Positions 21,007 to 40,429 of a DNA stretch of 64,000 bases are shown here, piece by piece. Below the pieces are notes generated by a model that was given only the letters and a program-made list of their open reading frames with translations, had not been told where the DNA came from and did no database searches. Source of the stretch: Mobula hypostoma (lineage: Eukaryota). The translations under genes were made by a program, and so were the position numbers. The stretch's first letter is position 1, and every line of letters begins with the position of its first letter. The stretch is from assembly GCF_963921235.1 (NCBI RefSeq), contig NC_086108.1, forward strand, positions 48,920,001-48,984,000, given 5' to 3'.

Positions 21007-21155
21007 ACACTGGAGTCGGAAGGCTTGGATTTAAATGCTGGTCTTCATGGTAACTGGACGCTTGAAAATTCCAAGGCTCAACTCAACCAATTCTTTCAAA
21101 AAGAGAAGATTCAAGCTGACTACAAATATTCTCAAGTGGGACCTGATCACAACAG
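21007..21155 (+). CDS. DHX9: DHX9 exon 6 equivalent, start of dsRBD2
   Basis: tttcctag|ACACTG...AACAG|gtttgc; 149 nt; TLESEGLDLNAGLHGNWTLENSKAQLNQFFQKEKIQADYKYSQVGPDHN(R). Confidence 0.97.
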
Positions 21156-22139
21156 GTTTGCTATATTTTGGTTGTGGAGTAATCAATTTGAGTAATTCTA
21201 CATTATTCATATTCAAAGCTTTCATTTCATGCAATTTTCTACAGATTGGGTTTCTGTGATAGACGCAATACATCTAATGTCAACTTGTTCACATTGAAGA
21301 TGGTGCTAATTGTCTTGCTTTGATTCAGATAGAATTAATCTGTTTAAAGGAATCTATAGAGATGAATAACTAATACATCCATGTAAGCTAACTAAGCTGA
21401 ATGATTGGATCAAAAATTTAAAAAGCTATATTATATTTCTTGTTTTCCATTTACATGCAGAAGATAACTGTTCTGCATATTCTTAAGACTATAAGAACTG
21501 CATGTTTATAATTGTCATAATCGGTTCTTTGCTAACACATTTACTTTGTTATTAGGAGAGTAGTTTGACATTCCATTCCAGAGATTTATTTTCTTTGTTA
21601 TAACTTTGCTATACTACAAGGATGCTGAAGGGATAGACATTTTGGATGAACTATTGTCCAAGACCCAGAATGAATCTTAAGGTGGGCGTAAAATATTCTA
21701 GCCAACGTGCCTCAACCAATTTAAGAGTGTATCATAAAAAAAGGAGTCAGAGTAGGCCACGTGGCTCACTGTGCTTGATCTGCCATTCTGTAATATAATA
21801 GCTTATTTCTGCTCATATCCTTTGATTCCCTTGATGTTCAAAAATGTAATGATATCCGTTTATAATCCTTTGGTAAGTTATTTGAAACTTCCAGAACTCC
21901 CAGGGTGAAAATATTTCTTCTCATCCTAGTCCTGAATGATCAAGACCATACTTTGAGACTCTTCTGTGCTTCTTGACATTACTAGCCATTGGGAACATCT
22001 CTGCATCAAACATGTTACATTCTTCAAGAGCTTTGTGTTACTCTGAGGCCACCTTTCTGATTCTTTCCATTAACTAATCTTAGTTTTTCAGCTACTCATT
22101 CATCTTGACTTGCAGTTTTAAAGAAGATTTTCCATAAGA

Positions 22140-24745
22140 ATCGGGTTTAGTATTAGTGATATGTTATGAAGCATATTGCTTTGCGGTAGCAGGACATAGT
22201 AATACATAATATTTAAAAAGTAAATGGTGCAAGAAGAGAGCAAAAAGATGAAAATGAGGTAGTGTACATGGGTTCATTGTCCATTGAGAAATCTGATGGT
22301 GGGGAGGAAGCTGTTCTAAAACATTTGAGTATGTGTCTTCAGGCTCCTAAACTACTTCCTTGGTGTACCAATGAGAAGGGGGCATGTCCTGCTGCATTTG
22401 TGATGATTTGAAGATGTCCTCAATGCTGGGGAGGCTAGTGCCCATGTTAGAGCTGGCTGAGTTTGCAATTTGCTGCATCTTTTTCCGATCCTTTGCAGTT
22501 GCCCCTGCATACTAGGTGGTGATGCAACTAGTTAGAATGCTCTGCACAGATAATTGTGTATAGATAATTGTGATAATCTTTGCTGACATACCAAGTCTCT
22601 TCAAACTCCTAATAAAACATAGCTACTGTCATGCCTTCTTGGTAATTGCATCAATATGTTGGGCCCAGGATAGCTCTTCAGAGATGTTGACACCCAGGAA
22701 CCTAAAACTGCTCACCTGTACCATTGCTGTATCCTCAATGAGAACTGATGTGTGTTTCCTGAACCTCTCCTTCCTGAAGTCTAGAATCAATTCCTTGGTC
22801 GTACTGATGTTGAGAGCAAGGTTGTTGTTGTGACACCACTCAACCAGCTGCTTTATTTCACTCCTATATGCCCTCTCATCACCATCTGAAATTCTGCCAG
22901 CAACGGTTGTGTCATCAACAAATTTATAGCTGGCGCTTGAGCTGTGTCTAGCCACACAGTCATGGGTGTAAATAGAGTAGAGCAGTGGGCTAAGCAGACA
23001 TCTTGGAGGTGCGCTGCTGTTGATTGTCAGCAAAGAGATGTTATTTCCCATCTGCACTGACTGGTCTCTCGATGAGGAAGTCAAGGATCCAGTTACAGAG
23101 GGAGGTACAGAGGCCCAGGTTTTGGAGCTTGTTGATTAGTACTGAGGGTATGATTGTGTTAAACACTGAGCTGTACTCAATAAACAGCAGCCTGATGTAG
23201 GTATTGCATGTGGTCAAGGCTGAGTGAAGAGCCAGTGCGATTGCGTCTGCTGTAGACGTATTTGTGGCAAGTTGATTCTCGCCATGACCAGCCTCTGAAA
23301 ACACTTCAACACAATAGATGTGAGTGCAACTGGGCAATAGTTACTGAGGCAGCTCATCTTGCTCTTCTTGGGCCCTGGTATGATTGTCACTGTTTTGAAG
23401 GAGGCGAGAGCCTCTGACTGCAGCAGTGAGAGATTGAAGTTATCTTTGAACACTCCTCCCAGTTGGTAGTGTGACAAGAATACACATAGATTAAGATGTT
23501 AGCTGTCCTGTGCTGGCCCAGTGGGATCAGCAGTTGGTCTGCCACCTGTCTTCAGGAGAGAGAGAGAGATAAGGAAAACAATGGAGCAGCATTTGGAGAT
23601 GTTAATGAAGGGACGGGAGAGAGTAACGGAAGGAGAGCTGTCAAGATCGGCTCCCCCTTTGAACCCTGAACTGTTTGAAGTGATGGACAGGCGATACCCC
23701 AGCAGGGGAATAAAAAGGGACAGGTTCGCTAAGGCAAGACACACATGACACTCCGAGGTAACGAGACCCTGGAAGCGGTGCATCTCCCACAAGCCGGTGG
23801 GAAGCTTTTGGACGGCTGGTCGCGGGATCAAGCCATAGACGCTCAGGGTGGAAAGGCACAATCGGCGGGAACCTGGTGTGTGTCCACCCTTGCCTGGGTG
23901 CCTGGTTCACCGCAGAGAAACGATCGTATCGGGAAACGGAGGGGTCACGGTCGGTGACCTCAGATGACATCACAAAGGACTCGCCCGAAAGCTGACTGCG
24001 AAGGTCTGTGTGGAAGCCGTTGTGAATATTCATTCGTTTTGCTCTCTCTCTCCTTCCCCCCACACTGTCCATCTCCCACGGCAGCGATTACTGCGAACTG
24101 AACTGAACTAAATTGAACTGAACTTTGCGTCACTTTGAAACTGGTCATTTACCCCTAGACAACGATAGAGCTTGATTGATCCTGTTATCTTAATTCTGTG
24201 TACATGTGTGTTTATCATTGCTGAACTGTTGCATTTATTATCCTTTTGATTAGAGTACTGTGTTGCTTGTTTCTTTAATAAAACTTTCTTAGTTCTAGTA
24301 ATCCAGACTCCAACTGAGTGATCCATTTCTGCTGGTTTGGCAACCCAGTTACGGGGTACGTAACAGCAGGTACAGGTTGACAGTGCTCTTTCAGGTGCAT
24401 TATCAGGGCCTGATGCCCTGTGAGGATTTACCTTCATGAAAGATGTTCTGATGTCTGCCTCTGAGACAAAGATGACAGGGTCACCAGATGATGCAGGGAT
24501 TCACACGTGTGGTTTTATTATCTCTTTCAAAGTGTGCATAAAAGGGGTTGAGCTCATCTGGGGGTGAAGAATTACAGCAATTCATGCTTGTTTGGTTTTT
24601 CCTTGTAGGAAGTAATGGTCTACAAATTCTGCTAGTGCTGATGTGCATCTGATTCCATCTCAGAATTGTTTTCTCGCTCTTAAAATAACCCTCTCTAGGT
24701 TGGACCTGGACTTCTTGCACAGTTCTGGATCACCAGTCTTGAATG
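22140..24745 (-). mobile_element. Rex1/Babar-type LINE, decayed, split by a solo LTR
   Basis: Minus-strand peptides [32 protein letters not shown] and YKFVDDT. Confidence 0.85.
23470..24365 (+). mobile_element. Solo LTR (Gypsy-like)
   Basis: TGTGACA...GTAACA termini; 4-bp flanks gtag/gcag; aataaa near 24277; cleanly interrupts the Rex LINE. Confidence 0.75.
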
Positions 24746-25575
24746 CCACATAAGTCGCATGCATCTGTATCGCAGTGGAATAAAGGGAAATACAGAGGCA
24801 TGAGAGGAGCTTACCCAGGTGGATTGGAGGAGGATTCTGGTGGGGATGACGGCAGAGCAGAGGTTGCTGAAATTTCTGGTAACAGTTCACAAGGTGCAAG
24901 ATAGGTATGTCCCACAGAAGATGTGGTTCTCAGTGGCAGAGATAGGCAACCGTGGCTGACAAGGGAAGCTAAGGAATAAAAGCCAAGGAACAGGCATATA
25001 AGGTAGCAAGAGTGGGAAGTTGGATGGTTAGGAAGCTTTTAAAATCCAACAAAAGGCAACTAAGAAAGCTATAAGAAGGGAAAAGATGAAATATAAGGGC
25101 AAACTAGCCAATAATATAAAACAGGATACCAAGAAATTTTTCAGTTATATAAAGAGTAAAAGGGAGGTGAAAGTTCATATTGGACCACTGGAAAATGATG
25201 CTGGTGAGGTAGTAATAGGGGACAAAGAAATGGCTTATGAAAATAATGGGTACTTTGCATCTGTCTTCATTGTGGGAGACAGATGCAAAGGCTTGTAAGT
25301 GTCAGGAAGCAGGAGTTCTAGGCAAACATGAAAGTCACCTGGACCAGATGGACTACATCCCAAAGTCCTGAGAGAGTTGCTGCAGCGATAACGGATGCAT
25401 TGGTCATGATCTTTCAAGAATGACTTGATTCTGGCATGGACCCAGAGGACTGGAAGATTGCAAATGTCACTACTCTTTGAGAAAGGAGAAGGGCAAAAGA
25501 AAGGAAATAATAGGCCAGTTAGCCTAACTTTGGTGGTTGGGAAAGTGTTGAAGTCTATTATTAAGGCTGAGGTCC
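24746..25575 (+). mobile_element. CR1 ORF2 fragment
   Basis: NIKQDTKKFFSYIKSK; NNRPVSLTLVVGK. Confidence 0.8.
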
Positions 25576-25994
25576 TCGATGTCCCTCTTGTACTGCAATC
25601 TTGCTCCGAGGTCTTCAGTTTTACAGAGAATGTATAGTCGTGAGTGGGAGTCTTAAGGCCTCTGCGTTTCAATTGTACCTGTAGCCCAATGTGCCTTCTC
25701 TGCTTCAGTTTTCGTAAAGGAGAATGGCACTCGCGATCTGAGTCTGCTGTCTGGGAGTCCATCAAATTTGAGGATCAATAGGTTTTCAGAAATGACTTAA
25801 AACTATGTTGCTTACTGAAGTATCCATGGTGATGATTCCTATTGGAGCTGCATGCAAAGAGCTGCCACTTACAGCGCCATCTTGAGACAGTGCTTTATTC
25901 CATAAAGTCAGTTGCTAAATGTTTGAGTAATTTCCTTCTGTTTTCCCCGAGTATAATTTCTTGTATCTCAGTCTGTAAAAGTCTGCTTTCCTTT

Positions 25995-26760
25995 ACAACA
26001 CATACAGAATGTTTGAGGAATTCAGCAGGTCAGGCAGCATCTATGGAAATGAAGAAACAAGTTGATATTTCAGGCCGAAACCTTTCTTCAGGTTTGGAAA
26101 GGAAGGGGGAAGTTGCCAAAATACAAAGGGAGGAGGGGAAGGGTGACTAGCAGGAAGATGACAGATGAAGCCCCGTGGGTGGGAAAGTTAAAGGGTTGAA
26201 GAAGAAGGAATCTGAGTGGACTATGGGAGAAAGGGAAGGAGGAAGGGAAGTTATAGACAGGTGAGGAGAAGACCTAAGTTGCTAGAGTGGGGAATAGAAT
26301 AAGGGGGAAGGGTAAAAAAATATTGGAAGGGGAAATTAATGTTCATACCATCATGTTGGAGGCTGTCTAGATGGAATATGAGGTATTGCTCCTCTACCCT
26401 GAGAGTGGCCTCATTGTGGGAAAAGTGGAGGCTGTAGACTAACTTGTGAAAACAAGAATGGGAATAGGAGATTCCACTTTTGATGATGAAATGGAGGTGC
26501 TTGACTGAGCAGACCCCCAATTTATTATCAGGTTTCACCATTATAGAGGAGGCCGCATCCGAGTGTCAGATATAATAGTGGTCCCCAACAGATTTGCAGG
26601 TGAAATGTTGCCTCACTTGGAAGTACTATTTGGGGCCCTGAATGGAGGTAAGGGAGGAGGTGAATGGGCAGGTGTAGCATGACTGTCTCTTGCAGGGACA
26701 TGTGCCAGGAGGAAGATTAGTGAGGAGGGACAAATGGACAAGGGAATTATGGAGGGACTT
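25995..26760 (-). mobile_element. Penelope-like element 3' part (GIY-YIG remnant plus terminal repeat)
   Basis: Peptide LRVEEQYLIFHLDSLQHDGMNINF; terminal repeat with a hammerhead-like core at 26061-26092. Confidence 0.75.
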
Positions 26761-29377
26761 ACTAATTGATCACTTACTGCTATATCTTATAATTTAGTTT
26801 CCTAGTCTACCATTGCCAACTCATACTTAATGCCTCAAGTTTGCTTCATTTTGCATTTAAAACCCTGGAATTTAATATTCCCAAAGTAAAACAGATTGTT
26901 CTTGTTATAATAAAAGTGACACCAATTTTAAATTATTTTTATGTAAAGGAGTTCAGGTGAACTGTTAATGATATTACGGAAATATATTTCATTAGATTGC
27001 ACGAATTTCTTGTATTTCTTAATTGTCAACTGGCACTTGGTTGTGTAGCTGTCCAAGTTGGATTTGTTTCTTGCAGATTTATTTAGCTGTAACTATAGGT
27101 TAGTTACTAAAGGGCAAACTAAATATTTCTGTATTTTGCCAAATTGATTTCAACTGTACCTCAGCAATGATGGGTAGATGTGTAAATAAGCTTCTAGACA
27201 GTTGTAGTGCCACAGTAATAACGTATATTAAGTGCAAAAAAGACTTGAGAATTCTCTGACTGTTTGACTTCCTATCGTGCCACACAATGGTATGTAATGA
27301 TCATCAAGAGGAATGCCAAAGAAAATGGCAGCTTGAGGGGCCAGAAAAAATAATAAGCTTTTGGGGTTGGTTGTGGCAAATCTACTGGTACTGGCACCTC
27401 ACTAAATATCATTAAACTATTGTATGTGGAAGGTTAATATAACGTGAAGTTTATAATGCTAAATGAACGTAGAATAGAGAATGTAGTTTGTCACATTGGT
27501 TTTGTTGAATCGATTTGTAATCTTAAGGAACTATTCTATAATGGATTTTTGTTATTTATGTTACAGTATTTATTAGTTTCACCTAAATTTGATACTTGGG
27601 TTGAAGAGCTACTGTTGACATTCAGCTGTCTCAAGCATGCCTGCAGGTCAGAGGCAGGAGCTTGTGGGTTGTTTGTTGACTCACATAGGTAACTCTCTCT
27701 TAGTCACACATAGTCCTGACTTAAATACTGGAACGCTCTATCGAAGAACATTTAGAAAATCAGAACGCTTAGAAATTTGAAATAAAAAACAGAAGATACT
27801 GGAAGTCTGAAATTTAAGTAGAAAATGCTATTTTCAATCAATATTGGAGACAGCAAAGAGTAACACTTCAGGTCAGAGTTCTGATTGAAGAATCTGTGAG
27901 CTGAAATATCAGCTCTTTTTCTCTGTATACAAATACTGATCTACTCTTATTACTTTCATCAGAAAGGTTGTGGCAGTTTAAGAAGATGACTAATCTTCTC
28001 CTGCAAGGCAGTAAAGGATGGTTAATAGATGCTGGCCCTGTCAGCAATGCCTTCAACCCATTAATGGAAATTGCCTTTTTACTAGATTTTGAGTACGTCA
28101 GTATGAAAACAGAGGATTAAATGTACTGACAATTAAACTCAGAAAGATTTGTCATAGTATGTTTCTCCTAAATTCTATTCCAGAGGAGCAAAACAAGATA
28201 ATATATTTCATACTGATATGTAAAAGCCAGTATAAAGTTTTAAAATTATTTTTTAATGAAAAATAATGTAATGTCTTACCTGTGAAAATTTCTGTTTGCT
28301 TGTCATGGTTATGATACCAGTATGTTTCTCAGCCAGCCTGCCTTGTTGTATACAGCTTTCTAGGGGGTAATTGCCAGGTACCCCTATGAATGCTAAGAAA
28401 AGTTGTATATTGCAGTGAACATCTGCAAATTGGGGAGAATAATCAGCGAACCTTACTTTACTGTTGCATTGCATCCAGGTGACATCCCTGGGGATGGGGG
28501 CGGGGGGGCGGGGGCGGGTTGTAATATTATGACTTTCCTGAGCCAAACAGCAGGAGTCTGCTGACAAATATGATCCTCTAATTTTTATTTTTTAGAAGTT
28601 ACAATGGTTAGTATTTCTGCTTCTCCTCTCAGAAGGTTACAAAATTTGTTCTTTGGAGGCATAGAAAGTGCAAAATGTTCTGAGAACAAGTAAGGGCAAA
28701 ATATTATTGATGCAAGAGACCTGAAACGAAAATGAAAAAATACTGGAAATACTTCGTGTCAGATTGATGACCTTCAAGCTGAATGCTGAAAAGTTAGACT
28801 TAATGAAGTTTTAAGACACTGGGGAAGTAGGTAAAGCAACAAACCTCAAGAGAAATGGAAGAAGTAATTTATAAGTGAATGAAGAGGGTAGTAATGGGAC
28901 AAGTAAAGAAACAAGGTTAACTGAGAAAGTGCATTTAGAAAACCAGTATCACCTGAAATTGCCAGAGAAAAATAGCATGCTAGAAATATAAAATAGAAAT
29001 GCTCATTATCTAAAATTGTTGAATTCATCATTGAATCTGAAAACTTACTGCACAATAGTGGTAAGTCAAAGAAACAAAGAAATGGAAGAATATGTGAAGG
29101 TGAGCAAAGAAGGGAAATTAGCAACAAATTTGATTCGTTGTTCAGTTTGATGCAACTATCCGTGTACTGGAAAGGAGATGTAGAAGTGGGTTCGTGTGTG
29201 ACTTAATGAATGTTTTGTGTAACGCACATAGAATCAGATTTAATATGAAATATGTTGATTTGTGGCAGCAGTACATTGGAATACAATATAAAAAAATTAA
29301 ATTATAGTTAAATACACAGTGCAATAAGAAAGCAGAATAAAGGTAAAATAGAGGTCGTGTGCATGGGTTCATTGTGT

Positions 29378-29383
29378 GTATAC

Positions 29384-29414
<31 letters not shown>

Positions 29415-29433
29415 CTCACTCACTCACTCACTC
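29378..29433. repeat. (CA)n/(CACT)n microsatellite
   Basis: Direct reading. Confidence 0.9.
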
Positions 29434-29489
29434 ACCCCACCCCTGCCGTAATTCTGAATGAAGTGAAATATAAACTAGTGATTGGGGTG

Positions 29490-30150
29490 ATTAGTAGGTT
29501 TGCCGACATCACAAAAATTGGTGGAGTTATGGATGGTGGAGGTTTTCAAAAGTACAGTAACTGTAGATTAGTTGATGTGAACAGGGAAGTGGCAGATGGA
29601 GTTTAATCAAGAGAAGTGTGAAGTGTTGTACTTTTCAAGGTCAGATGTAAGGGGAAGTACATGAAATTACACTGCCCTTAGGAGCATTGATGTACAGAGC
29701 AATCTTGGAATTCAAATCTATATCTGCCTGAAACTCGCAACGCAAGTGGAGTGGTGAAAATGACGTATGGCTTACTTGCCTTCATAAATTGGGGGATTGA
29801 ATATAAAAGTAGTGTCACAGCTTTATAAAAATTTAGTTAGTGTTGTATGCATTCTTGTTATTATATTACAGGAAATTTGTGGAGGCTTTGGAGGGGGTGC
29901 AGTAGTGGTTCACCAAGATATTGCCAGGATAAGAGTGTATTGGTATAAGGCGAAGCTAGACAAACTCAGAATGTTTGGAACTTCGGAAAACAAGGATTTT
30001 TTTTTCCATGTGGAATGTCAAAGACCAGAGAGCATGGTTTTAACATGAGAGGAGGAAATTAGGTAAAGGAGTGACAGGAGGTGTGCGAGACAATTTTCTT
30101 TACACAGAGACTGTAGGTCTCTGGGGATGTGGGGTTGTGGGTGAATGGTG
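29490..30150 (+). mobile_element. Old CR1 RT/3' fragment
   Basis: ISRFADITKIGG; heavily decayed. Confidence 0.65.
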
Positions 30151-30156
30151 GAAGTA

Positions 30157-31693
30157 CAGTGGTGCTTGGAAGTTTGAACACTTTAGAATTTTCTTTTTCT
30201 GCATAAATAAGATCTAAAATGTGATCAGATCTTCACTTGTCCTAAAACTAGATAAAGAATAACCAATTGAACAAATAACTAAAAAAACACTTTTTCATTT
30301 ATTTATTGAGAAAAATGATGCAATATTACATGTATTTGTTTGAAGAAGTATGTGAACCTATGCTTTCAGTAACTGCTATGACTCCCTTGTACAGCAATAA
30401 TTTTAACCAAACATTTCAGGTAACTTGATTAGTCCTGCTTGCAAAACTGCTTCAACTCTGGGATGTTTGTGGGCTTCCTTGCATGAACTGCTTGCTTCAG
30501 GTCCTTCCACAACATTTCTATAGGATTAAGATCACAACATCCACTCGGCCATTCCAAAACATGAAATTTCTTCTGCTTTAACCATTTTTTGGGGTTGTTG
30601 TCTTGCTGCATGGCCCACTTTCTCTTGAGGTTCAGTTCACGGACGGATACCCTGACACTTTCCTATATAATTTGCTGCTACAAGTCAGAATTTATAATTC
30701 CATCAATGATAGCAAACCATCCTGGTCCCAAGGCAGCAAAGCAGGCTCAAACCATGGTACTACCACCACCATGTTTCACAAATGGGGTGAGATTCTTATG
30801 CTGGAATGCATTGTTTGCTTTTCGCCAAACATAATGCTTCTCATTTAAGCCAAAAAGTTCTATTTTGGGTTCACTGTCCACAGAATGTTCTTCCAGTAGC
30901 TTTCTGGCTTATCCACGTGGTCTTAGATGGATAGTAATGTTCTTGGGAGAGTAGTGGCTTTCTCTCTGCAATCCTGCTATGCACACCATTTGTTCAGTGT
31001 TTGCCTTCTGGTAGACTCATGAACACTGACATTAGCCAATGCGAGAGAGGCTTGTAGCTCCTTAGACGTTACCCTGGGTTTCTTTGTGACGTCCTAGAAT
31101 ATTATACGCCTTGCTCTTGGAGTGATTTTTGTAGGTCGACCACTTCTGGGGAGAGTAAAAATGGTGTTGAATTTCCTCTATTTGTACGCCATCTGCCTGA
31201 CTGTGTATTGGTGGATCCCAAACCTTTAGAAATGGTTTTGAGTCCTTTTCCAGCCCGCTGAGCATCAACAGTTTTTTTTCTGAGGCCCTCGGAAATCCCT
31301 TTTGATCTAGGCATGACAAACTTCCAAAAACCTGTGTGGTGAAGATCATACTTTGATAGTGAAGACCCAGGTTTATGTTCTTTAAATAGGGTAGGGTTTC
31401 CCACACTCAAACCTGATTGTCATCCCATTGATTGAAATACTTGACTCTAATTTCCCCTTTAAATGAGCTGATAATCCTAGAGGTTCATGTAATTTTTCCA
31501 ACAAGTACATGTAAATTGGATCATTTTTCTCAAAAAGTAAATGAACAAGTATAATGGTTTTTTGTGCTTTTTGCCTAACTGGGTTCTCTTATCTGTTTTT
31601 AGGACTTGCGTGAAGATCTGATCATATTTTAGGTCATATTTATGCAGAAAGAGAGAAAATTCTGAAGGGTTCACGAACTTTCTGGCACCACTG
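30157..31693 (-). mobile_element. Tc1-like transposon with long (~200 bp) TIRs, decayed transposase
   Basis: TA-cagtggtgc...gcaccactg-TA; TIRs ~30157-30360 and ~31480-31693; peptides MPRSKGISEGLRKK, QQDNNPK and DLNPIEMLW. Confidence 0.92.
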
Positions 31694-32051
31694 TAGATAT
31701 AATAGTAAGATTTAAGAGGTTCTTTAGAAGGTATTTGAACATGCAAGGAATAGAGGGTATGGATCATATGCAGACAGGTAAGATTAGTATAATTCAGCTT
31801 TGTGGTCTGTACTAATTGACCTTCATAGTCAGCACAGACATTGGGTTGCACTATTCTGTGTTCTATTCATTGTATTTTCCTTTAGTAATATCAAATTATT
31901 TTGATAGACCATTTATGACCCCTTTATTTTTCCCTTTCATCCCTAATCATTATTTAATCTCTTGTCACCCAGCCAATCTTTTCTTTCCTTATCTCATCCC
32001 TATTCTTCTTCACCACATCTGCATCTTTAAACGAATTTCTAACTTTTCCAG

Positions 32052-32821
32052 CAACACACATAAAAGTTGCTGGTGAACGCAGCAGGCCAGGCAGCATCTC
32101 TAGAAAGAGGTACAGTTGACGTTTCAGGCCGAGACCCTTTGTCAGGACCAACTGAAAGAAGAGCTAGTAAGAGATTTGAAAGCGGGAGGGGGAGATCCGA
32201 AATGATGGTAGAAGACAGGAGGGGGAGGGATGGAGCCAAGAGCTGGACAGTTGATTGGCAAAAGGGATATGAGAGGATCATGGGACAGGAGGCCTAGGGA
32301 GAAAGAAGGGGAAGGGGGAGCCCAGAGGATGGGCAAGGGGTATGGTTGGAGGAGCAACACCTTATATTCCGTCTTAGTAGCCTCCAACCTGATGGCATGA
32401 ACATTGACCTCAAACTTCTTCTAATGCCCCACCTCCCCCTCGTACCCCATCTGTTATTTATTTATATACACTCATTCTTTTTCTCTCTCTCCTTTTTCTC
32501 CCTCTGTCCCTCTCACTATACCCCTTGCCCATCCTCTGGGCTCCCCCCCCCCTTTTCTTTCTCCATAGGCCTCCTGTCCCATGTTCCTCTCATATCCCTT
32601 TTGCCAGTCCACCGTCCAGCTCTTGGCTCCATTTCGGATCCCCCCCTCCCACTTTCAAATCTCTTACTAGCTCTTCTTTCAGTTAGTCCTGACGAAGGGT
32701 CTCGGCCCGAGACGTCGACTGTACCTCTTCCTAGAGATGCTGCCTGGCCTGCTGCGTTCACCAGCAACTTCTATGTGTGTTGTTTGAAATTCCAGCATCT
32801 GCAGATTTCCTTGTGTTTGCG
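32052..32821 (+). mobile_element. Penelope-like insertion with inverted terminal arms and a 15-bp TSD
   Basis: Arms ~32052-32344 and ~32517-32782 are inverted; spacer encodes EEQHLIFRLSSLQPDGMNID; TSD ttctaacttttccag at 32037-32051 and 32822-32836. Confidence 0.88.
32685..32720 (+). ncRNA. Minimal type I hammerhead ribozyme motif (PLE-borne; GAAA mutated to GAGA)
   Basis: agtc-CTGACGA-a-gggtctcggccc-GAGA-cGTC-gact. Confidence 0.65.
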
Positions 32822-33103
32822 TTCTAACTTTTCCAGTTCTGATAGATGGTCATTGATCTGAAAAGTTAATTATCTCTCTTTCCACAGATGCTTCCTGATC
32901 TGCTGAGTATTTCCAATATTTGCTAACTTAAAATCATTATAAATTAATTGTAAAAGCCTATTGGGGTAAAGTTTCAGAGATATGCTTTAATAAGGTGCAG
33001 TATTTACTGACTTATTAAATTACAGTTTATTATGTGGCAGGTATGTTGATATAAATTTTCTGGATTTAAGTGACAAACCTGTCGCTCCTTTATTTAATTT
33101 CTC

Positions 33104-33252
33104 ATGGGAGTGTGGTGACACCAGAAATCTCTTTTGCAAACATGTGACGTTGCTTAGGCTGCACTAAGCTGTCACATGGTATCCTTCCATTGTAGGAATG
33201 ATGGTTGAAGCAATCATACACAGCTATTGATTTCTGGTGTCACTTTTCCTGT
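33104..33252 (+). promoter_or_regulatory. Predicted multibranch RNA structure covering the branch point and pyrimidine tract of the candidate poison exon
   Basis: gtgacaccagaaatc (33115-33129) is the exact reverse complement of gatttctggtgtcac (33229-33243); nested hairpin at 33141-33178. Confidence 0.6.
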
Positions 33253-33254
33253 AG

Positions 33255-33418
33255 GTATTCTGGGGGACCTAGGGCTGATGGAGATTGGATCTTTATTTTG
33301 AGCTTGGCAGAGAAACATACTGGCATCCAAGAATGGTCGATATTGGGCCTATAAACAGGCTCCTCTGAATCGTGAAGTTGCAGTGCTTGATCTCAGTTGA
33401 CCAAATATAGGATCAGAA
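33255..33418 (+). other. DHX9: Candidate DHX9 poison (PTC/NMD) cassette exon in intron 6
   Basis: cttttcctgtag| acceptor and GAA|gtgagt donor; 164 nt; in-frame TAA at 33352-33354 when joined to exon 6; TE-free context. Confidence 0.65.
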
Positions 33419-34862
33419 GTGAGTTGGACAGATTTAAAAAAAAATGCATGTTACATATCAATGAAAACTGTGTATACCAAGAACTAGATTCCTGGACAGA
33501 GCAATAAATTGAAAATTAATTCTTTAGGCACACAATTTGCTGTATTCTGAACTGCATGACCAAAATTTGTCTGTCAGTGCATATGTATAAAGTATGGAGC
33601 ATTTGAATACTACGACAATACCATCTTTAATTCTTAGATGAGATTTTCTGGAAAGGAAACTAGTTCCAGCACAACAGTTTTCCAATTGAATGCTAATGTG
33701 TAGTTGAAGAAATTAATCACTTAGAAAATGCTATCGCCAATGTTACAAGACCTTTTATTTCATATTAAATGATGAATGTGTTTTTCTAATATTTGTCCCA
33801 CTGACATTTTGTTAAGTGATGGGTTGTAGCAACTTAATTAAGAAATTCTTTATGCAACCTAATTTCTTTATTTGTTTATCATAATTTTATTTTTATCTGC
33901 ATGTTTTAAAGCTTGTATTTATAATTTAAGTCTTTATTAATTAATTATGTGGGTTAATGGACAATTTGTTTCCAAATTATTATGCCTGCAAAGTTTTGAG
34001 CACCAGTAGTAAGAGTACATAGTTCTTTAAAAACCTATGAAACTCTGTGTTTTCGGTTAGTTTTCATTTATTCACTATATCAGTTATCCAGCTTAAAGAA
34101 AACATGGATTCTCAAAAGCTTACAGAGTCTATTAAACACTTCTTCACCCAAATGAAAGCAGCTGCTTTTATTTTACAAGAGACAAATATCAGCATTAATT
34201 TATAACAGCACTAGACTGTGCATTGGACATTTAAAGTGTATTTCAAAATGCAGTTAATAATGTATTTGATTCAAGTTCAAAAAAGCTGATTTTTGTTTTT
34301 ATTTGTGGATCAAATTTCTTTTATGCTATTCAATAATTTTACATTGAATAGTAGCTATGTGCTGAAGTTTCTGCTAATGTTACACACAGCTATCCCCTTA
34401 GTGTTTATAACTGGTTTATCCCTGGATTTTCTTCCTAATTCCGTATTTCAAATTAGAAAGTCACCTTGAGGGCAGTTATGAGCTTAAACATTTCATCTTT
34501 AAATACCTTTTGTGTCAATAGTGCCATCTATTGTGCACTATTCTGAATATTTCTTCTACTTCATTGAAATTGATTTTGCTTGTTTTGGATTTGGTCTGGT
34601 TTACTAAAAGATAGAATACATTGGATGTGTTAAACCTCCCTTAAAAATTTGAGACCATGTCCTTCTCTGAAATGAGAAGTTCAGCAAGAACCTTCCACGT
34701 CTCCTTCATTAAGTCATTAATTTAAAGATATTCAAATCTATTCCCCTTAATCAAAATGTCTTGTAAAAAAAAATCCACAAAATAATGCACATTTTGGTAA
34801 TGCCAATAATGTGTAAGTGCTAAAACGATGGAGTTAATTTGATGTTGTGCATGTCATTGCAG

Positions 34863-34909
34863 GAGTTTTATTGCAGAGATGACTATTCACGTGAGACAGC
34901 TGGGAAGAA
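34863..34909 (+). CDS. DHX9: DHX9 exon 7 equivalent
   Basis: cattgcag|GAGTTT...GAAGAA|gtaagt; 47 nt; SFIAEMTIHVRQLGR. Confidence 0.96.
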
Positions 34910-35109
34910 GTAAGTAGCACTTACATGTAGATGTGAACAGCTTTTGATGGTAAAGTTTGCATGGAACTATTAAAATAAGGGATGATCTGGGCTTGACTGC
35001 TGTATAAATGTTCCAAAAGGACTTGAGCTTCTGTATTAACAAATGAAGCATGTTGAGAATGAAACTGGGAGAATATTGCCACAAGGCAATTTAGAAGTTT
35101 TAATTTCAA

Positions 35110-35385
35110 TGAAGGTGATATGCGGTGCGGAATAAACCCTTGCGGCCTTTTGAGCTGTGCCGCCCAACAAATCCCGATTTGACTCTAGCCTAATCATGGG
35201 ACAACTTAGTGACCATTTAACCTATGAAGCGGTACATCTTTAGACTGTGGGAGGAAACTGGAGCACCCAGAGAAATTCCTCCCACAGTCTAAAGACGTAT
35301 TCTACAGGGAGGACTTACTCCTCACAGATGACGTTAGAATTCAACTCTAACCTCAGGTTCCCCAAGCTGTAATAGCGTTGCGCTA
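35110..35385 (-). mobile_element. V-SINE-like element with an internal inversion
   Basis: gactgtgggaggaaactggagcaccc is the reverse complement of the V-domain core. Confidence 0.55.
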
Positions 35386-36704
35386 AAAGAGGATAAAAAA
35401 ACCGTATATTTTGAGATGATTACCAATTCGCAATAAAGATATTTTGCAAAAGTTGATAAACATTAGTATATAACTATGAGTTCTTGTTGTCTTATTCTTT
35501 TGCTGTTTAAGTGCTGAAGTATTTAATTGCAACTTTTCTTTAATAAATTTAGAATTGGAAACTGCCCGACAGAATAAAATGCAGATGATTAGCATAACAT
35601 TAGGAGTAAGCCTGAGGTCTGAAATTTGGGAAGGAATACACATGTATACTCTGTTGAGAAAATATTTTTCTAAGCACCAGTAACTTGAAGATGAGAATAT
35701 TGTTGGAGGGAGGTTTTATACTGTCGATCCGTAATTTATCTTAGCGGTTTTTGTTTTAAGGTGGAATTTTGATAGGGGTTTATCATAAATGTGAGTGCGT
35801 GTCTGTTCCACAGTGGCATGAGGCACTAGCAAATGAAACAGGAAACCATGTGATAACCCAAGTAATTGGAAACATTCTGATCCAGGAACAAAATCTTCTG
35901 AGTTCCGGCCATCATTCAATTCAGGATTGGTTTCCTGAAGTGTCTTTGAATTTTGGTCTGGACAAATTCATAGCAGTATTTATTTGGCATTGGAGAATTG
36001 CAAAATAAGAAACGTGTGCTTTTTCTGTACACTTTTTTTCAATACTCTGTTCTACTCCTACTAGATGCATAAGGTTACAAAGAACGTCAAGTTTCCATTC
36101 ACTGGTCAGTCTTATTTAGAGCACCAACTTACTAATTATATTGCATCCTTGTCAATCACTTCCAATAATCTAATGATAACCACAAAATGTCCATATGACT
36201 GATTTTATAAAGCAAGCTGCTGTAAGCCAATGCAGGTAAAACACACTGTAGGGTTAACTAGTACATTATTATATGTTTAACATTCAACATTTAGTAAGCC
36301 AGCTGCTATATATTTTTAAAAGAATGTAATTTTTTTTGTATAGTCTTAGAATCATACAATACAAAAACAGGGCCTTCAGCTCAACTGGTCCATGCCAACC
36401 AAACTTCTCTTCTAAGCAAGTCCCTAAGCCCTGGGAAAAAGATTGACATCACCTTATCTAACCCCCTCATGATTTTATGCACCTCTAAGACTGTGCTTCA
36501 TTACCCTACACTTCAGTAAATGAAATTCTAACCTCTCTCAACTCTCCCAACAGCATCCTCAAATATCTACTCTGCATTCTTTCTAGCTTAATGGCATCTT
36601 TTCTTTCGCAGGGTGCTCAAAACTCTCAATGATATAACAGTTGCCACCCCAACAACATCTTGTACTATTGCAGTGTAACATCCCAACTTCTATACTCAAT
36701 CATA

Positions 36705-38115
36705 AACACATGAGATTCTGCAGATGCTGGAAAACCAGAGCAACAAAAAGAAAATGCTGGAGGAAGTCAGCAAGTCAGGCAGCATCCATGGATAAAGAAT
36801 CCAAGAATAAACAGTTGACATTTTGGGCTGAGACCCTTCATCAGGACTGGAAAGGAAGGGGAAAGAAGCCAGAATAAGGTGGGGGAAGGGGAGGGGTACA
36901 AGAAGGTAAGGACAGGTGAAACCAGATGAGGGGCCAGTTAGGTAGGTGAGAAGGGGAGGTGATAGGTGGAACAGGTTGAAGTGGTGGAACAGGTGGATAG
37001 GCTGAAGAAGAAGGAATTTGATAGGAGAGGACAGTGAACCATGGGAGAAGGGGAAGGAGCAGAGGCACCAGAGGGAAGCAGGTGAGGAGAAGGGAAGGGA
37101 TATGAGGAGAGCCAGAATGGGAAATGAGAGAAGAGGAGGGGGGAGAAATTACTTCTTCCACGTAACCAGCGAAAAATTAGACATTGCTGGGGCCCATGTG
37201 AGTGTACCTTTGGAGGAAGTGGGAGGAGCTGCTGAAAGAAATTGTCGAGGGTGAGGATCGATTCTGCCAGATGTAGGAGGGAAGTGCTAGACGGAAACTG
37301 GTTAGGTCTGCTGTATAGAAAAAAGTGCAGAAAATGGGGGATAGAAGTGTATAGGGACCGGACATCCATAATGAAATTGAGACGATCAGGGCAGAGGACT
37401 TAAAAATGAATGAAGAGTTTGAGAACATATGAAGTGTCATTTATATAGGTGGAAAGGGACTGAACCAAGGGGGACAAAAAGCAGTCAAGGTGTATGCACA
37501 AGTGTTCAGTGGGGCTGGAGCAGTCAGAAATAATGGCCCTGCCCAGGCAGTCAGGTTTGTGGATCTTGGGTAGGAAGTAGAAACAGGTAGTGTAGTATAA
37601 GGGAACTATGAGGTTGGTGGCAATGGATGGGAGATCTCCAGAGTCATTGAGGTTGGTGATGGTACAGGAGACAATGGCCTGATATTCCTGAGTGGGATCT
37701 TTTTCAATGGGAGTATAAAGGAAGTTGCCTGGGAGATGCCGCCTGGTCTAAGCAAGATAGAGGTCAGTCTGCCTGTCTGTCAGACTCCACTTGTCTACAG
37801 GTTTGATGGTGAGCTCGTGATTGGTGGAGGGAGAGTGGAGAGTAGTGCATTTTGAGGGAGTGAGGTTCAAATATAAGAGAGGAGTGTTGAAGTCAGAACG
37901 GTTGATGGCTTGTCAGCAGTTAGAGATGAAAATATCCAGAGTGGGCAGAAGACCAGAATAGGATAGTTAAGAAGAGGAAGAGGGTTGAAAATGGGAGAAG
38001 GTGGCATTGGTGTGGGGTGGGGAGTCCTTGCTAAAGAAGTAGGCTCATAGACGGAGGTGACTGAAGAAGAGGTCATTGTCCTTGGATACATGAAGTACCA
38101 CATGCCAAAGACATT
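36705..38115 (-). mobile_element. Penelope-like element (RT remnant plus terminal repeat) nested in a CR1 fragment (~36350-38790, minus)
   Basis: Peptide MDVRSLYTSIP (PLE RT motif); terminus aaacacatgagattctgcagatgctgg; degenerate hammerhead at 36812-36849. Confidence 0.75.
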
Positions 38116-39225
38116 CACCTACCTGTGACACCACTGTCAGGGAACCATGTATTTGTATTCCTGGATCACTCCACAGGGCCTTAAAGCTCCTAACCTCATT
38201 TTTCTTCCCAACACCTCACACTTAACACAATTAAACTCCATTTGCCATTCCTCGTCTAGCTTGCCCAGCTTACCAAGATTGCTCAGTTGATCTTGTTAAC
38301 AATCTTCATTGTCTACACCACCACTTAATTTAGTACCATCTGCAGATTTGTGTGTCTTGTACATTCTCATCCAAATCTTGATGTAGATGACAAATAGCAA
38401 TGGGCTCAGCACTGATCTAAATGGAACAGCACTAATCATGTGCTTCCAATTCAAAAAAAATTTCTGCCATCACCCCCTGCTTCATCAAGCCAATTGTGTA
38501 TCTAGTTAGCTAGCTCTGCATGGATCCATTTGGTCTAATTCTCCACAGCAGTCTACCATGTAGAACCTTACCAAAAGCTTTACTGAAGTTTAACGCTTTG
38601 CCCCTATTGACCACCTTGGTTACTTCTTTTTAAAAAAAAAAGTCGCTTAAATTGTTGAGGTGTCTTTCTAAATGTGTGCATGTCTTATCAGTCAAAATCC
38701 TCTCATAATTACCTACCACAGATCTTAGACCTACTGGTCTATACCAGTTGCTTTTCTTAAGCAAAGGAATAACATTAGCCACCCTCCTGTTCACTAATAA
38801 TGATAACATGATGGTTGAAAATTAAGTTACAGTTCCAGCTGGGTCAAAATCATGGAATTCCCTCCCTAGCAGCACTGTGGGTGTACCTACATCTCAGAAG
38901 GCAGCTCATCACCACCTTCTCAAGGGCAACTAGGGATGGACAATAAATGCTGGCTTAGCTGGTGACACCCACGTTCCTGTAAATGAATTTTTTTTTAAAT
39001 TAACTCTTCCTGCTTGTCACCACCACATTCTAAAATGTGTTTTTGAAGTTGTGTATTCAAATATGCCTGGAGTCAGAAAATTATGTACCAAGTAACTCAG
39101 CGGGTGATGAGATATCAGGGTATTGTAGTCTGACATGATTCTTAATCATTTAGATTGAGAAATCTGAATAATTAAAAATAAACAATGCATGCTGAACTTG
39201 TAAATGTATCATTCCCTTCCTTTAG

Positions 39226-39362
39226 AAATCACAGCCCGTGAGCATGGTTCAAACAAGAAACTGGCTGCACAATCGTGTGCACTGTCATTGGTCCGACAGC
39301 TTTACCATCTAGGAGTGTTTGAAGCTTTCACTGGACATACAAAAAAGAAAGAGACAGAAAAA
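39226..39362 (+). CDS. DHX9: DHX9 exon 8 equivalent, end of dsRBD2
   Basis: cctttag|AAATC...GAAAAA|gtaagt; [45 protein letters not shown]. Confidence 0.97.
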
Positions 39363-40429
39363 GTAAGTAACTTGATGACTTGCATAGAGTAAGATTACTT
39401 ATGAATATTGGTATTTGGGAAAAATGCAGCAATTTACAAAAAGGATTAGATATTTGTTCATCAAATTTTCCTTCTATGCTGAATAGTTAGATTGCTTTGT
39501 AAATTATCCTGTAATGTAACCATAAATGTAATAATTACAATATTTAACCCTTGTAAATATTTCCTTCTTCACCTGCAATATTCATTTGAGCAGATCAAGG
39601 AAATTACATCCCAGATTTCTTGGACTCAGCTGTGTTAGATTTTCAGTCAGAGAGGCACTACAACTGTGCTTCGATTGCTCCCAGCAAAGGAATGACATTA
39701 ATGTTTCTGTTCTTGCATCATTATTCATTTGCTTATGTAAATGTGAATTTTGAATGAGAATAGGAAAAGGGAAGGCATCTGAATTCACACATGAAGAATG
39801 CTATAAGGACAAGATTTTGGAAGATGCTCAACACATGGAACATTATGCCATTTAACAGTTTGTCACTTAATGAGAGCACTGATGTGATTGGGAAAATGAA
39901 CGGTGTTGTCTTGGCTTCAAGAACATACATGGAAGTAGTTGTGCAATTCAGTGCTTTTTGCATTAAGTACAACACCATTTACCCTTGCTGAGGAATATGA
40001 GCAATGAAAAGTTCCAGTAAAAGAAAATGATAAAAAACCGTAATGCTCAAAATCAGATCCAAAAACAGAAAATGCTAGAAACATTTAAACATTAGGCAAC
40101 ATCTGGAAGGAAAACCACTTAAAGGGGATTTTGCATCAAGATTAGCATGTGATTCTGGAACCAAAATGTTAATTGCTTCTTCCACAATTACTGTTTTACT
40201 AGTTTATTTCCAGCATTTCCTACTTTTGTCCCAGATCTGATAGTTTGAAATAATGTGTTTGTCTGCAGATATTCTAATCCTTGTAGTTCTCTAATCGTTG
40301 TGTTTCAAAATCCATCTGAAATCAAGTTTGTAATGTCCTAATGCACACCCAGGATTATATGGACTGTAAAACTTTTAAGTTCCTGCAAATTGCATATCAG
40401 AAAACTACTGAAAGAATAGTTTTGTGTGA

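What the first reader, a model, noticed from the sequence alone, without database searches (positions are those of the whole stretch)
33255..33418. Candidate poison exon in DHX9 intron 6
Seen: a strong acceptor (cttttcctgtag|G) and donor (GAA|gtgagt) define a 164-nt exon in a TE-free stretch of intron 6. Joined to exon 6 (phase 2) it reads R-YSGGPRADGDWIFILSLAEKHTGIQEWSILGL-stop. The TAA at 33352-33354 lies 64 nt before the exon end and upstream of many further junctions, and the exon length also shifts the frame. Known (from memory): human DHX9 has a PTC-containing alternative exon '6A' between exons 6 and 7 that triggers NMD. Inference: this may be the orthologous switch, which would make it as old as jawed vertebrates.
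Basis: partly seen in the sequence, partly recalled or inferred. Interest (0 to 1): 0.85.

Follow-up and report, generated by a model that had tools for sequence, protein, structure and literature searches.

The report
Stop-carrying extra exon in DHX9
A 164-base extra exon with a built-in stop codon lies in the same intron of the RNA-helicase gene DHX9 as a known human "poison exon", and RNA assemblies from four related animals indicate it is really spliced in, so this brake on DHX9 output exists outside mammals.

Summary
At 33255-33418 an AG|G acceptor and a GAA|GTGAGT donor bound a 164-nt single-copy stretch. Entered from DHX9 exon 6, it reads 33 codons to TAA (33352-33354) and shifts the frame.

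Motifs alone are not beyond chance. Seven decoy pairs on the + strand score as well on both sites, three of them in this intron.

Transcript assemblies decide it. In 4 of 4 laid runs (four organism labels, four studies) a contig's fitted part starts at 33253 and/or stops at 33418 and then runs on for 27-30 letters. Those lengths match de Bruijn overlaps with exon 6 and exon 7. The overhang letters were not shown, so the partners are inferred.

Published human primers place human intron 6 at the identical codon position, and human exon 6A also begins with GT. The 42 internal bases of human 6A have no counterpart anywhere in the window, whereas coding-primer controls find theirs.

Verdict: a real, lineage-conserved stop-carrying cassette exon, probably coupled to nonsense-mediated decay (NMD). 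It matches human exon 6A in position, but orthology is unproven. NMD sensitivity was not tested.

The parts
21007..21155 (+). DHX9 exon 6 (first half of dsRBD2). It ends with 2 bases of an Arg codon and has a weak donor, CAG|gtttgc.
   Evidence: 3vyx_A, E 1.2e-24. Contigs of X1, X4 and X8 fit 21007/21010/21011-21156 and end there. Donor score 4.6.
33235..33254 (+). 3' splice site of the cassette exon: tggtgtcacttttcctgtag.
   Evidence: Score 9.5, matched or beaten by 51 of 4447 AG sites. The fitted parts of contigs from X1, X4 and X8 begin at 33253, which is the AG shared with the end of exon 6.
33255..33418 (+). 164-nt cassette ('poison') exon. It starts with GT, has stops in all three frames and shifts the frame by +2.
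   Evidence: Contigs: X1 record 7 (0 differences), X8 record 31 (2 substitutions plus 9 gap letters), X3 record 14, X4 record 23. Single copy in the own genome.
33352..33354 (+). In-frame TAA, 64 nt before the exon's 3' end.
33419..33424 (+). 5' splice site GTGAGT (GAA|gtgagt).
   Evidence: Score 7.7. The fitted parts of contigs from X1, X3 and X8 stop at 33418, each with 30 further letters.
34863..34909 (+). DHX9 exon 7 (47 nt, ..SFIAEMTIHVRQLGR..). Its acceptor is a CAG|GAG tandem.
   Evidence: The reverse complement of human primer E6FjE7R finds this place as its top hit in the window. The X8 exon-8 contig has exactly 47 letters left upstream of exon 8.
39226..39362 (+). DHX9 exon 8 (second half of dsRBD2).
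   Evidence: mRNA-like contigs X4 record 24 (3463 nt) and X8 record 32 (3220 nt) fit here for only 139 letters.

Best explanation
33255-33418 is a genuine alternative cassette exon of DHX9. It lies 12.1 kb into the 13.7-kb intron that splits the second dsRNA-binding domain.

When the exon is spliced between exon 6 and exon 7, translation stops at its TAA after 33 foreign codons. That stop lies 64 nt upstream of the next exon junction, with at least 8 further DHX9 coding exons downstream in the window alone. By the established 50-55-nt rule (recalled), such a message is a substrate for nonsense-mediated decay. Inclusion therefore lowers productive DHX9 mRNA. This is splicing-coupled NMD, the mode of action shown experimentally for human DHX9 exon 6A.

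Shown here: the sequence anatomy, use of both splice sites in transcript assemblies of four organisms, and the identity of the host intron with human intron 6.

Inferred: that the joined partners are exon 6 and exon 7, that the isoform is degraded by NMD, and who regulates inclusion.
For: (1) Anatomy.

(2), table 8.
- X1 record 7 (223 nt, mean word depth 44.9) fits 33253-33418 with 0 differences and has 30 + 27 further letters.
- X8 record 31 (214 nt) fits the same span, also with 30 + 27 further letters.
- X3 record 14 stops at 33418 with 30 further letters.
- X4 record 23 starts at 33253 after 27 letters.
That is 4 of 4 laid runs, from 4 organism labels and 4 studies.

(3) The overhang lengths are what a 31-mer graph gives for these junctions. 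Exon 6 plus a G is shared by the exon-7 and cassette paths, and the exon-6 contigs of X1, X4 and X8 end at 21156. A 30-letter overlap minus the 3 letters AG+G that also fit the window gives 27. The X8 exon-8 contig has exactly 47 letters (the length of exon 7) upstream of exon 8. That indicates a branch at the first base of exon 7 whose preceding letter is not G, which fits ..GAA|G. The X4 contig, which reads through the donor, has 76 = 47 + 29 letters there.

(4) The runs behave as RNA. The X1 exon-6 contig (596 nt) fits for only 150 letters. The 3220- and 3463-nt contigs fit exon 8 for only 139 letters. X1 exon contigs have depth 45-152, against 3.7-5.5 for X1 contigs on unique intron.

(5) Conservation. 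Sampled 31-mers of the exon are held by 14 runs of 10 studies under 10 organism labels. In organism E the exon shows 2 substitutions in 157 aligned letters, against 17 in 285 for coding exons 6 and 8 (Fisher one-sided p = 0.014). Its 9-letter gap keeps the length at 2 mod 3.

(6) Human precedent in the same intron.
Against: - The overhang letters were not displayed, because tables 5 and 7 were swamped by transposon joints. The overhangs are 27-30 letters, below the tool's own 31-letter rule for 'bridging'. The exon 6 and exon 7 partners are therefore inferred from geometry.
- No run is on record as RNA. The tool's 'RNA?' is a guess, and it flags X8 as 'probably DNA'.
- The X3 contig runs 380 nt into the upstream intron and the X4 contig runs 288 nt into the downstream intron, so part of the signal comes from partly processed RNA.
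- Contig depth cannot measure inclusion.
- For organisms C and D, exon and flanking intron together differ by 2.8% and 3.5% (15 of 544 and 16 of 454 letters). Coding exons differ by about 2%. There is no sign of extra constraint in those two.
- Equally good splice-site pairs occur by chance (7 decoys).
- NMD was not tested.
Confidence: 0.8

Rival explanations
1. Independent origin. The exon arose within this animal's lineage and only resembles human exon 6A by sitting in the same long intron (convergence on a permissive intron).
For: No similarity between the exon and the 42 internal nt of human 6A. The share of 775 control windows scoring at least as well was 0.29 and 0.285, and 0.19 for the joint score. 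There were 0 matches with 3 or fewer mismatches in the whole window, while human coding primers score 29 and 34 against a median of 12 at their true places. The first four bases also differ in the last two (GTAT against GTGG). The tail peptide has no relative in the protein collection.
Against: Only 46 nt of the human exon were available. Non-coding exon sequence can turn over completely across deep vertebrate divergence while the switch persists. The two exons share the same intron, the same phase, a GT start and a UAA/TAA stop.
Confidence: 0.5
2. True orthologue of human exon 6A. This would be an intron-6 poison exon inherited from the jawed-vertebrate ancestor, with its sequence diverged beyond recognition.
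For: The host intron and phase are identical. Both exons start with GT directly after the acceptor AG, and only 305 of 4451 AG dinucleotides in the window are followed by GT. Both carry a UAA/TAA stop.
Against: The same negative similarity tests as above. No intermediate taxa were examined. The shared features were picked post hoc.
Confidence: 0.25
3. Recursive-splicing exon. The exon mainly helps remove the 13.7-kb intron in two steps. Ligation of exon 6 to the exon regenerates a 5' splice site (CAG|GT...), which normally removes the exon again. Inclusion is then the failure mode.
For: The exon begins with GT. The regenerated site scores 4.15, close to exon 6's own donor at 4.62. X4 record 23 (27 letters, then the exon, then unspliced downstream intron) has the form of the first-step product. 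The definition of an RS-exon comes from the abstract of PMC6224609, seen in the listing.
Against: The exon's own donor is much stronger (7.72), so inclusion should win once the acceptor is used. The X1, X3 and X8 contigs show that own donor in use. There is no lariat or sawtooth evidence. The scores rest on a recalled matrix.
Confidence: 0.12
4. Productive isoform. The exon makes a stable mRNA for a truncated protein (dsRBD1, the linker, half of dsRBD2 and a 33-residue tail) rather than a decay substrate.
For: Contig depth relative to the exon-6 contig is not small (44.9 against 151.7 in X1, 8.2 against 43.9 in X8), although the tool warns that depth is a poor measure. The 9-letter gap in organism E is a multiple of three.
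Against: The stop lies 64 nt before the next junction, with many junctions downstream. The protein would carry a half dsRBD2. The tail has no relatives.
Confidence: 0.08
5. Splicing noise: a pseudo-exon used at a low level without function.
For: Decoy pairs of equal motif quality are common.
Against: The same boundaries appear in 4 organisms from 4 studies. In organism E the exon carries fewer substitutions than the neighbouring coding exons. X1 shows 0 differences in 166 letters against 25 in 1221 letters of X1 intron contigs (p = 0.04).
Confidence: 0.05

Closest known systems
Human DHX9 exon 6A (transcript NR_033302). Sources: Fidaleo et al. 2015, PMC4741636, and Palombo et al. 2020, PMC7072589 (passages and primer tables read).
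   Same: A cassette exon between exons 6 and 7, in an intron at the identical codon position and phase. It has an in-frame UAA stop. It starts with GT. The host gene is the same helicase. In human it is stabilised by UPF1 knock-down, raised by slow RNA polymerase II, and repressed by hnRNPM and SRSF3.
   Different: No detectable sequence similarity in the 46 nt of human exon that I could see. The regulators, NMD sensitivity and stress response are untested here.
Ultraconserved poison exons of SR-protein and hnRNP genes
   Same: Unproductive splicing in an RNA-binding-protein gene. In one species comparison (organism E) the exon has fewer substitutions than the adjacent coding exons.
   Different: No conservation to human was shown. 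Autoregulation by the encoded protein is not known for DHX9: 42 papers hold 'DHX9', 'autoregulat' and 'nonsense-mediated', and none of the 15 listed titles addresses it.
Recursive-splicing exons (RS-exons). Source: Blazquez et al. 2018, PMC6224609 (abstract start seen in the listing).
   Same: An AG|GT junction at the exon start regenerates a 5' splice site after ligation to the upstream exon. The exon lies deep in a long intron.
   Different: The regenerated site (4.15) is weaker than the exon's own donor (7.72). No intermediates were proven.
Structure-gated poison exons in DDX5/DDX17/DBP2-type helicase genes
   Same: A helicase gene with a stop-carrying exon in a long intron.
   Different: No significant local structure masks the splice sites here: z = +1.33, and 187 of 200 shuffles fold at least as well. 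The big hairpin 465 nt upstream is a multi-copy foldback transposon.

Membership tests
Poison (NMD-coupled) cassette exon | Both splice sites are used in vivo. | tested here: met
   Fitted parts start at 33253 (X1, X4, X8) and stop at 33418 (X1, X3, X8), followed by 27-30 unlike letters. Caveat: the overhang letters were not shown, and the overhangs are shorter than 31 letters.
Poison (NMD-coupled) cassette exon | Alternative: the mRNA without the exon is the productive form. | tested here: inconclusive
   The coding frame requires exon 6 joined directly to exon 7. X4 record 24 has 76 = 47 + 29 letters upstream of exon 8, as a direct exon 6-7 junction would give. The letters were not shown.
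Poison (NMD-coupled) cassette exon | An in-frame stop more than 50-55 nt upstream of a downstream exon junction. | tested here: met
   The TAA at 33352-54 is 64 nt before the exon end. Exons 7, 8 and at least 7 more coding exons follow in the window.
Poison (NMD-coupled) cassette exon | The isoform rises when NMD is blocked. | not testable with these tools
   This needs a cycloheximide, SMG1-inhibitor or UPF1 knock-down experiment.
Orthologue of human DHX9 exon 6A | Same host intron and phase. | tested here: met
   Human primers E6jE6A-F and E6FjE7R compared with window positions 21155 and 34863.
Orthologue of human DHX9 exon 6A | Sequence similarity of the exon. | tested here: not met
   against the coding controls. 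Only 46 nt of the human exon were available.
Orthologue of human DHX9 exon 6A | Presence in intermediate vertebrate lineages. | not tested
   No other vertebrate genomes are held. The protein searches and the metagenome scan found nothing.
Orthologue of human DHX9 exon 6A | Repression by hnRNPM and SRSF3; inclusion on slow RNA polymerase II or DNA damage. | not testable with these tools
   Experimental.
Recursive-splicing exon | The acceptor AG is directly followed by GT, regenerating a 5' splice site. | tested here: met
   tag|GTATTC. The regenerated site scores 4.15.
Recursive-splicing exon | The regenerated site competes successfully with the exon's own donor; intermediates or lariats exist. 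| tested here: inconclusive
   The own donor (7.72) is stronger than the regenerated site (4.15). X4 record 23 is compatible with a first-step product but equally with ordinary stepwise splicing.
Known structured RNA gene in the intron (snoRNA, miRNA and the like) | Match to an Rfam family. | tested here: not met
   Over 32800-35000 on both strands there was only a chance hit, E = 0.47 at 34550-34653.

The most novel reading that the evidence does not exclude
DHX9 has carried an intron-6 unproductive-splicing switch since the common ancestor of jawed vertebrates. Its architecture is conserved: the same intron and phase, an exon that begins with GT so that ligation to exon 6 regenerates a splice donor (a recursive-type exon), and a UAA stop. 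The exon sequence itself has turned over between this lineage and human.
Probability: 0.25. Interest if true: 0.75.

Novelty: new member of a known kind. Interest (0 to 1): 0.55.

Why it matters
DHX9 is an abundant dsRNA/R-loop helicase. In human its level is set partly by exon 6A, and that exon has been studied only in tumour cells. A used, conserved, stop-carrying exon in the very same intron of a distant vertebrate says that dosage control of DHX9 by unproductive splicing is not a cancer-cell or mammal-specific oddity.

It also makes an open question directly testable: was the switch inherited, or was it invented twice in the same intron? Intron-6 alignments and RNA-seq from a handful of vertebrate lineages would settle that.

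My searches found no paper on a DHX9 poison exon outside human. 'Poison exon' + 'shark' gave 5 papers, 4 listed, none on DHX9 by title. 'DHX9' + 'poison exon' gave 26 papers, 20 listed. 'DHX9' + 'exon 6A' gave 11 papers.

Tried and rejected
- No RNA holder listed: the look-up of sequencing runs gave no run that is on record as RNA. All 'RNA?' labels are the tool's guesses.
- Runs X15-X19 hold next to none of the sampled words. This is no proof of absence.
Small shares in unlaid runs are not used as evidence.
- Tables 5 and 7 did not show the joints or loose ends at 33255 and 33418. A further 1167 joints and 5250 loose ends were not shown, and transposon joints filled the lists.
- Whether the three decoy pairs in intron 6 (24609-24839, 28633-28689, 32888-33040) are used cannot be told. 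No contig bounded by them is listed, but 44,926 pieces were not shown.
- The structure-gating idea (DHX9 as a sensor of an RNA helix over the splice sites) is rejected for local structure. Positions 33205-33468 fold at -57.3 kcal/mol, z = +1.33.
- The -537 kcal/mol hairpin at 32045-32789 is a foldback repeat with at least 3706 first-look candidates in the genome at 89-95% identity. I therefore do not count it as a dedicated element.
- Protein searches with the open frame 33202-33351 found no homologue among proteins of 27-88 aa or 89-2000 aa.
- An exact scan of metagenome contigs with 27 nt across the donor gave 0 hits.
- Earlier notes of this scan: no look-alike stretch by sequence and no note near this place.
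- Rfam: nothing on the exon.
- The organism was not identified.

Full report
**1. The observation**

- The acceptor is ...cacttttcctgtag|G, so the exon starts at 33255.
- The donor is ...GGATCAGAA|gtgagt, so the exon ends at 33418.
- That bounds 164 nt.
- The upstream exon (21007-21155) ends ...GATCACAACAG|gtttgc with two bases of a codon.
- The downstream exon starts at 34863 (cattgcag|GAGTTTTATTGCAGAG...).

Entering from exon 6, the frame reads R-YSGGPRADGDWIFILSLAEKHTGIQEWSILGL and stops at TAA 33352-54, 64 nt before the exon end. Because 164 mod 3 = 2, the frame is also shifted, and the exon has stops in all three frames.

The translation of 21007-21153 matches human RNA helicase A dsRBD2 (3vyx_A, E 1.2e-24), so the gene is DHX9. 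Further DHX9 coding exons are visible along the + strand up to about 58.7 kb.

The stretch 33155-33518 occurs once in the 3.48-Gb genome and holds no tandem repeat.

One correction outside the finding: exon 7 is 34863-34909 (47 nt).

**2. Is it more than chance?**

Not by motifs alone. I used a weight matrix typed from recalled consensus frequencies. The candidate's acceptor (9.5) and donor (7.7) are good: exon 6 scores 5.9 and 4.6, and exon 8 scores 9.8 and 7.9. However, 14 acceptor-donor pairs 50-300 nt apart on the + strand of the window equal or beat it on both sites. Of the 14:
- 1 is the candidate;
- 4 are true exons;
- 2 share a true exon's donor;
- 7 are decoys without coding sense, three of them inside intron 6.

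**3. RNA evidence**

The 164-nt exon (13 sampled words) is held by 14 runs of 10 studies under 10 coded organism labels. No run is on record as RNA.

I laid four runs on 20900-39500 at 88% likeness: X1, X3, X4 and X8, labelled organisms A, C, D and E, from four studies.

They behave as transcriptomes:
- The X1 exon-6 contig is 596 nt long but fits only 21007-21156.
- Contigs of 3463 nt (X4) and 3220 nt (X8) fit exon 8 for only 139 letters.
- In X1, exon contigs have mean word depth 45-152, while contigs on unique intron have 3.7-5.5.

The key rows of table 8 are:

| Run, record | Length | Fitted part | Differences | Further letters |
|---|---|---|---|---|
| X1, record 7 | 223 nt | 33253-33418 | 0 | 30 at one end, 27 at the other |
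| X8, record 31 | 214 nt | 33253-33418 | 2 substitutions, 9 gap letters | 30 and 27 |
| X3, record 14 | 851 nt | 32875-33418 | 15 substitutions, 1 gap | 30 beyond 33418 |
| X4, record 23 | 481 nt | 33253-33706 | 16 substitutions, 1 gap | 27 before 33253 |

So in 4 of 4 runs a contig leaves the genome exactly at one or both predicted splice sites.

**4. Who are the partners?**

The overhang letters were not shown, because transposon joints filled tables 5 and 7. At 27-30 letters they are also below the tool's 31-letter rule for bridging. The partners are therefore inferred from geometry.
- In a 31-mer graph neighbouring contigs overlap by 30 letters.
- Exon 6 plus one G is common to the exon-7 path (G AGT..) and the cassette path (G TAT..). 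The exon-6 contigs of X1, X4 and X8 end at 21156, as this predicts.
- The cassette contig should then begin with the last 29 letters of exon 6 plus G. The letters AG+G also fit the window at 33253-55, which leaves 27 unfitted letters, as observed three times.
- The X8 exon-8 contig has exactly 47 letters upstream of exon 8, which is the length of exon 7. A branch therefore sits at the first base of exon 7. A branch against unspliced pre-mRNA would share CAG and give 50 letters. A branch against ...GAA| gives 47.
- The X4 cassette contig reads through the donor, and its exon-8 contig has 76 = 47 + 29 letters there, as expected if no second path enters exon 7.
- The fitted part stops at 33418 rather than 33419, although exon 7 also starts with G. 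That would follow if the G was assigned to a separate exon-7 piece. I could not see this.

**5. Conservation**

- Organism A: 0 differences in 166 letters of the exon, against 25 in 1221 letters of X1 contigs on intron (p = 0.04).
- Organism E: 2 substitutions in 157 aligned letters, against 9 of 146 (exon 6) plus 8 of 139 (exon 8) in coding sequence (one-sided p = 0.014). Its 9-letter gap leaves the length at 2 mod 3.
- Organisms C and D: exon plus flanking intron differ by 2.8% and 3.5%, and coding exons by about 2%. I cannot separate exon from flank in these two, so they add no sign of extra constraint.
- The three exon-6 differences that were displayed (21090, 21096, 21123) are all third-position synonymous changes by my reading.
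- If X8 is a mixed sample, the contrast for organism E would be unsafe.

**6. Relation to human exon 6A**

PMC4741636 and PMC7072589 (passages read) show the following for human exon 6A:
- It lies between exons 6 and 7.
- It carries a UAA premature stop.
- It is stabilised by UPF1 knock-down.
- It rises with slow RNA polymerase II and with DNA damage.
- It is repressed by hnRNPM and SRSF3.

Their primer tables give a junction primer E6jE6A-F, whose exon-6 part ..CCTGATCACAACAG is identical to the window's exon-6 end, followed by GTGG. They also give E6FjE7R, whose reverse complement puts the start of human exon 7 at the same codon position as 34863. The host intron and phase are therefore the same, and both exons start with GT.

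The two internal human 6A primers (22 and 20 nt) are no more similar to the exon than to control windows. The share of 775 windows scoring at least as well was 0.29 and 0.285, and 0.19 for the joint score. They have no match with 3 or fewer mismatches anywhere in the window. Human exon-6 and exon-7 primers find their true places as the top scores (29 and 34, median 12).

Positional equivalence is shown. Sequence homology is not. None of the passages I read mentions conservation of the human exon.

**7. Mechanism**

The best reading is splicing-coupled NMD. Inclusion places a stop 64 nt upstream of the next junction, and many junctions follow.

A secondary idea is recursive splicing. Because the exon starts with GT, ligation to exon 6 regenerates a donor-like site that scores 4.15, similar to exon 6's natural donor (4.62) but weaker than the cassette's own donor (7.72). 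This fits the definition of a recursive-splicing exon (abstract of PMC6224609 in the listing). It could allow the exon to be removed again. The evidence is only compatible with this, not supportive.

A structure-sensing model is not supported. The exon plus or minus 50 nt has no unusual fold (z = +1.33). The giant hairpin 465 nt upstream is a multi-copy foldback element. No Rfam family lies on the exon.

**8. Verdict**

This is a real, lineage-conserved, stop-carrying cassette exon in DHX9 intron 6. It is a new member of a known kind and the positional counterpart of human exon 6A. Whether it is inherited or convergent remains open. I put inheritance at about 0.25.

Noticed in passing
window 32045-32789: A near-perfect foldback hairpin: arms 32045-32318 and 32544-32789, 90-93% complementary, RNA fold -536.7 kcal/mol, z = -35. 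It ends about 465 nt upstream of the cassette exon's acceptor. One arm has at least 3706 first-look candidates in the own genome at 89-95% identity, and one other place carries both arms, so it is a foldback/MITE-like transposon. It is a very long dsRNA-forming element inside the pre-mRNA of a dsRNA helicase. Whether it influences the neighbouring exon is unknown. The X3 contig stops fitting at 32875, which suggests the insertion is not shared by organism C.
   Followed up: partly
window 34857-34868: The exon 7 acceptor is a tandem CAG|GAG (NAGNAG-type). Use of the second AG would delete the Arg codon in frame. No evidence of such use was seen.
   Followed up: no
window 21153-21161: The natural donor of exon 6 is weak (CAG|gtttgc; score 4.6 against 7.4-7.9 for exons 7 and 8, by a recalled matrix). 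It stands in front of the 13.7-kb intron that hosts the cassette exon.
   Followed up: partly
window 32888-33040: A decoy exon with stronger motif scores than the candidate (acceptor 11.5, donor 9.6) lies 215 nt upstream of it. It has stops in all frames. Its use in RNA could not be judged.
   Followed up: partly
window 21123: The window has C where all four laid runs, including the near-identical organism A, have T (a synonymous TAC/TAT change). This is a private allele or a lineage-specific change of the assembled individual.
   Followed up: no
window 2212-3333, 13233-14087, 56260-57438 (+ strand frames): Long open frames that look like reverse transcriptases by eye (LINE-type fragments) lie in the DHX9 introns and upstream region. 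Bins over 22-27 kb and 35-37 kb collect thousands-fold contig depth in all four runs, so these are expressed or highly repeated transposons.
   Followed up: no
window 33430-33510: Downstream of the cassette donor lie an A9 run (33436-33444) and an AATAAA (about 33504-33509). The X4 contig reads through the donor to 33706, so an intronic polyadenylated end is not indicated. It was not tested.
   Followed up: no
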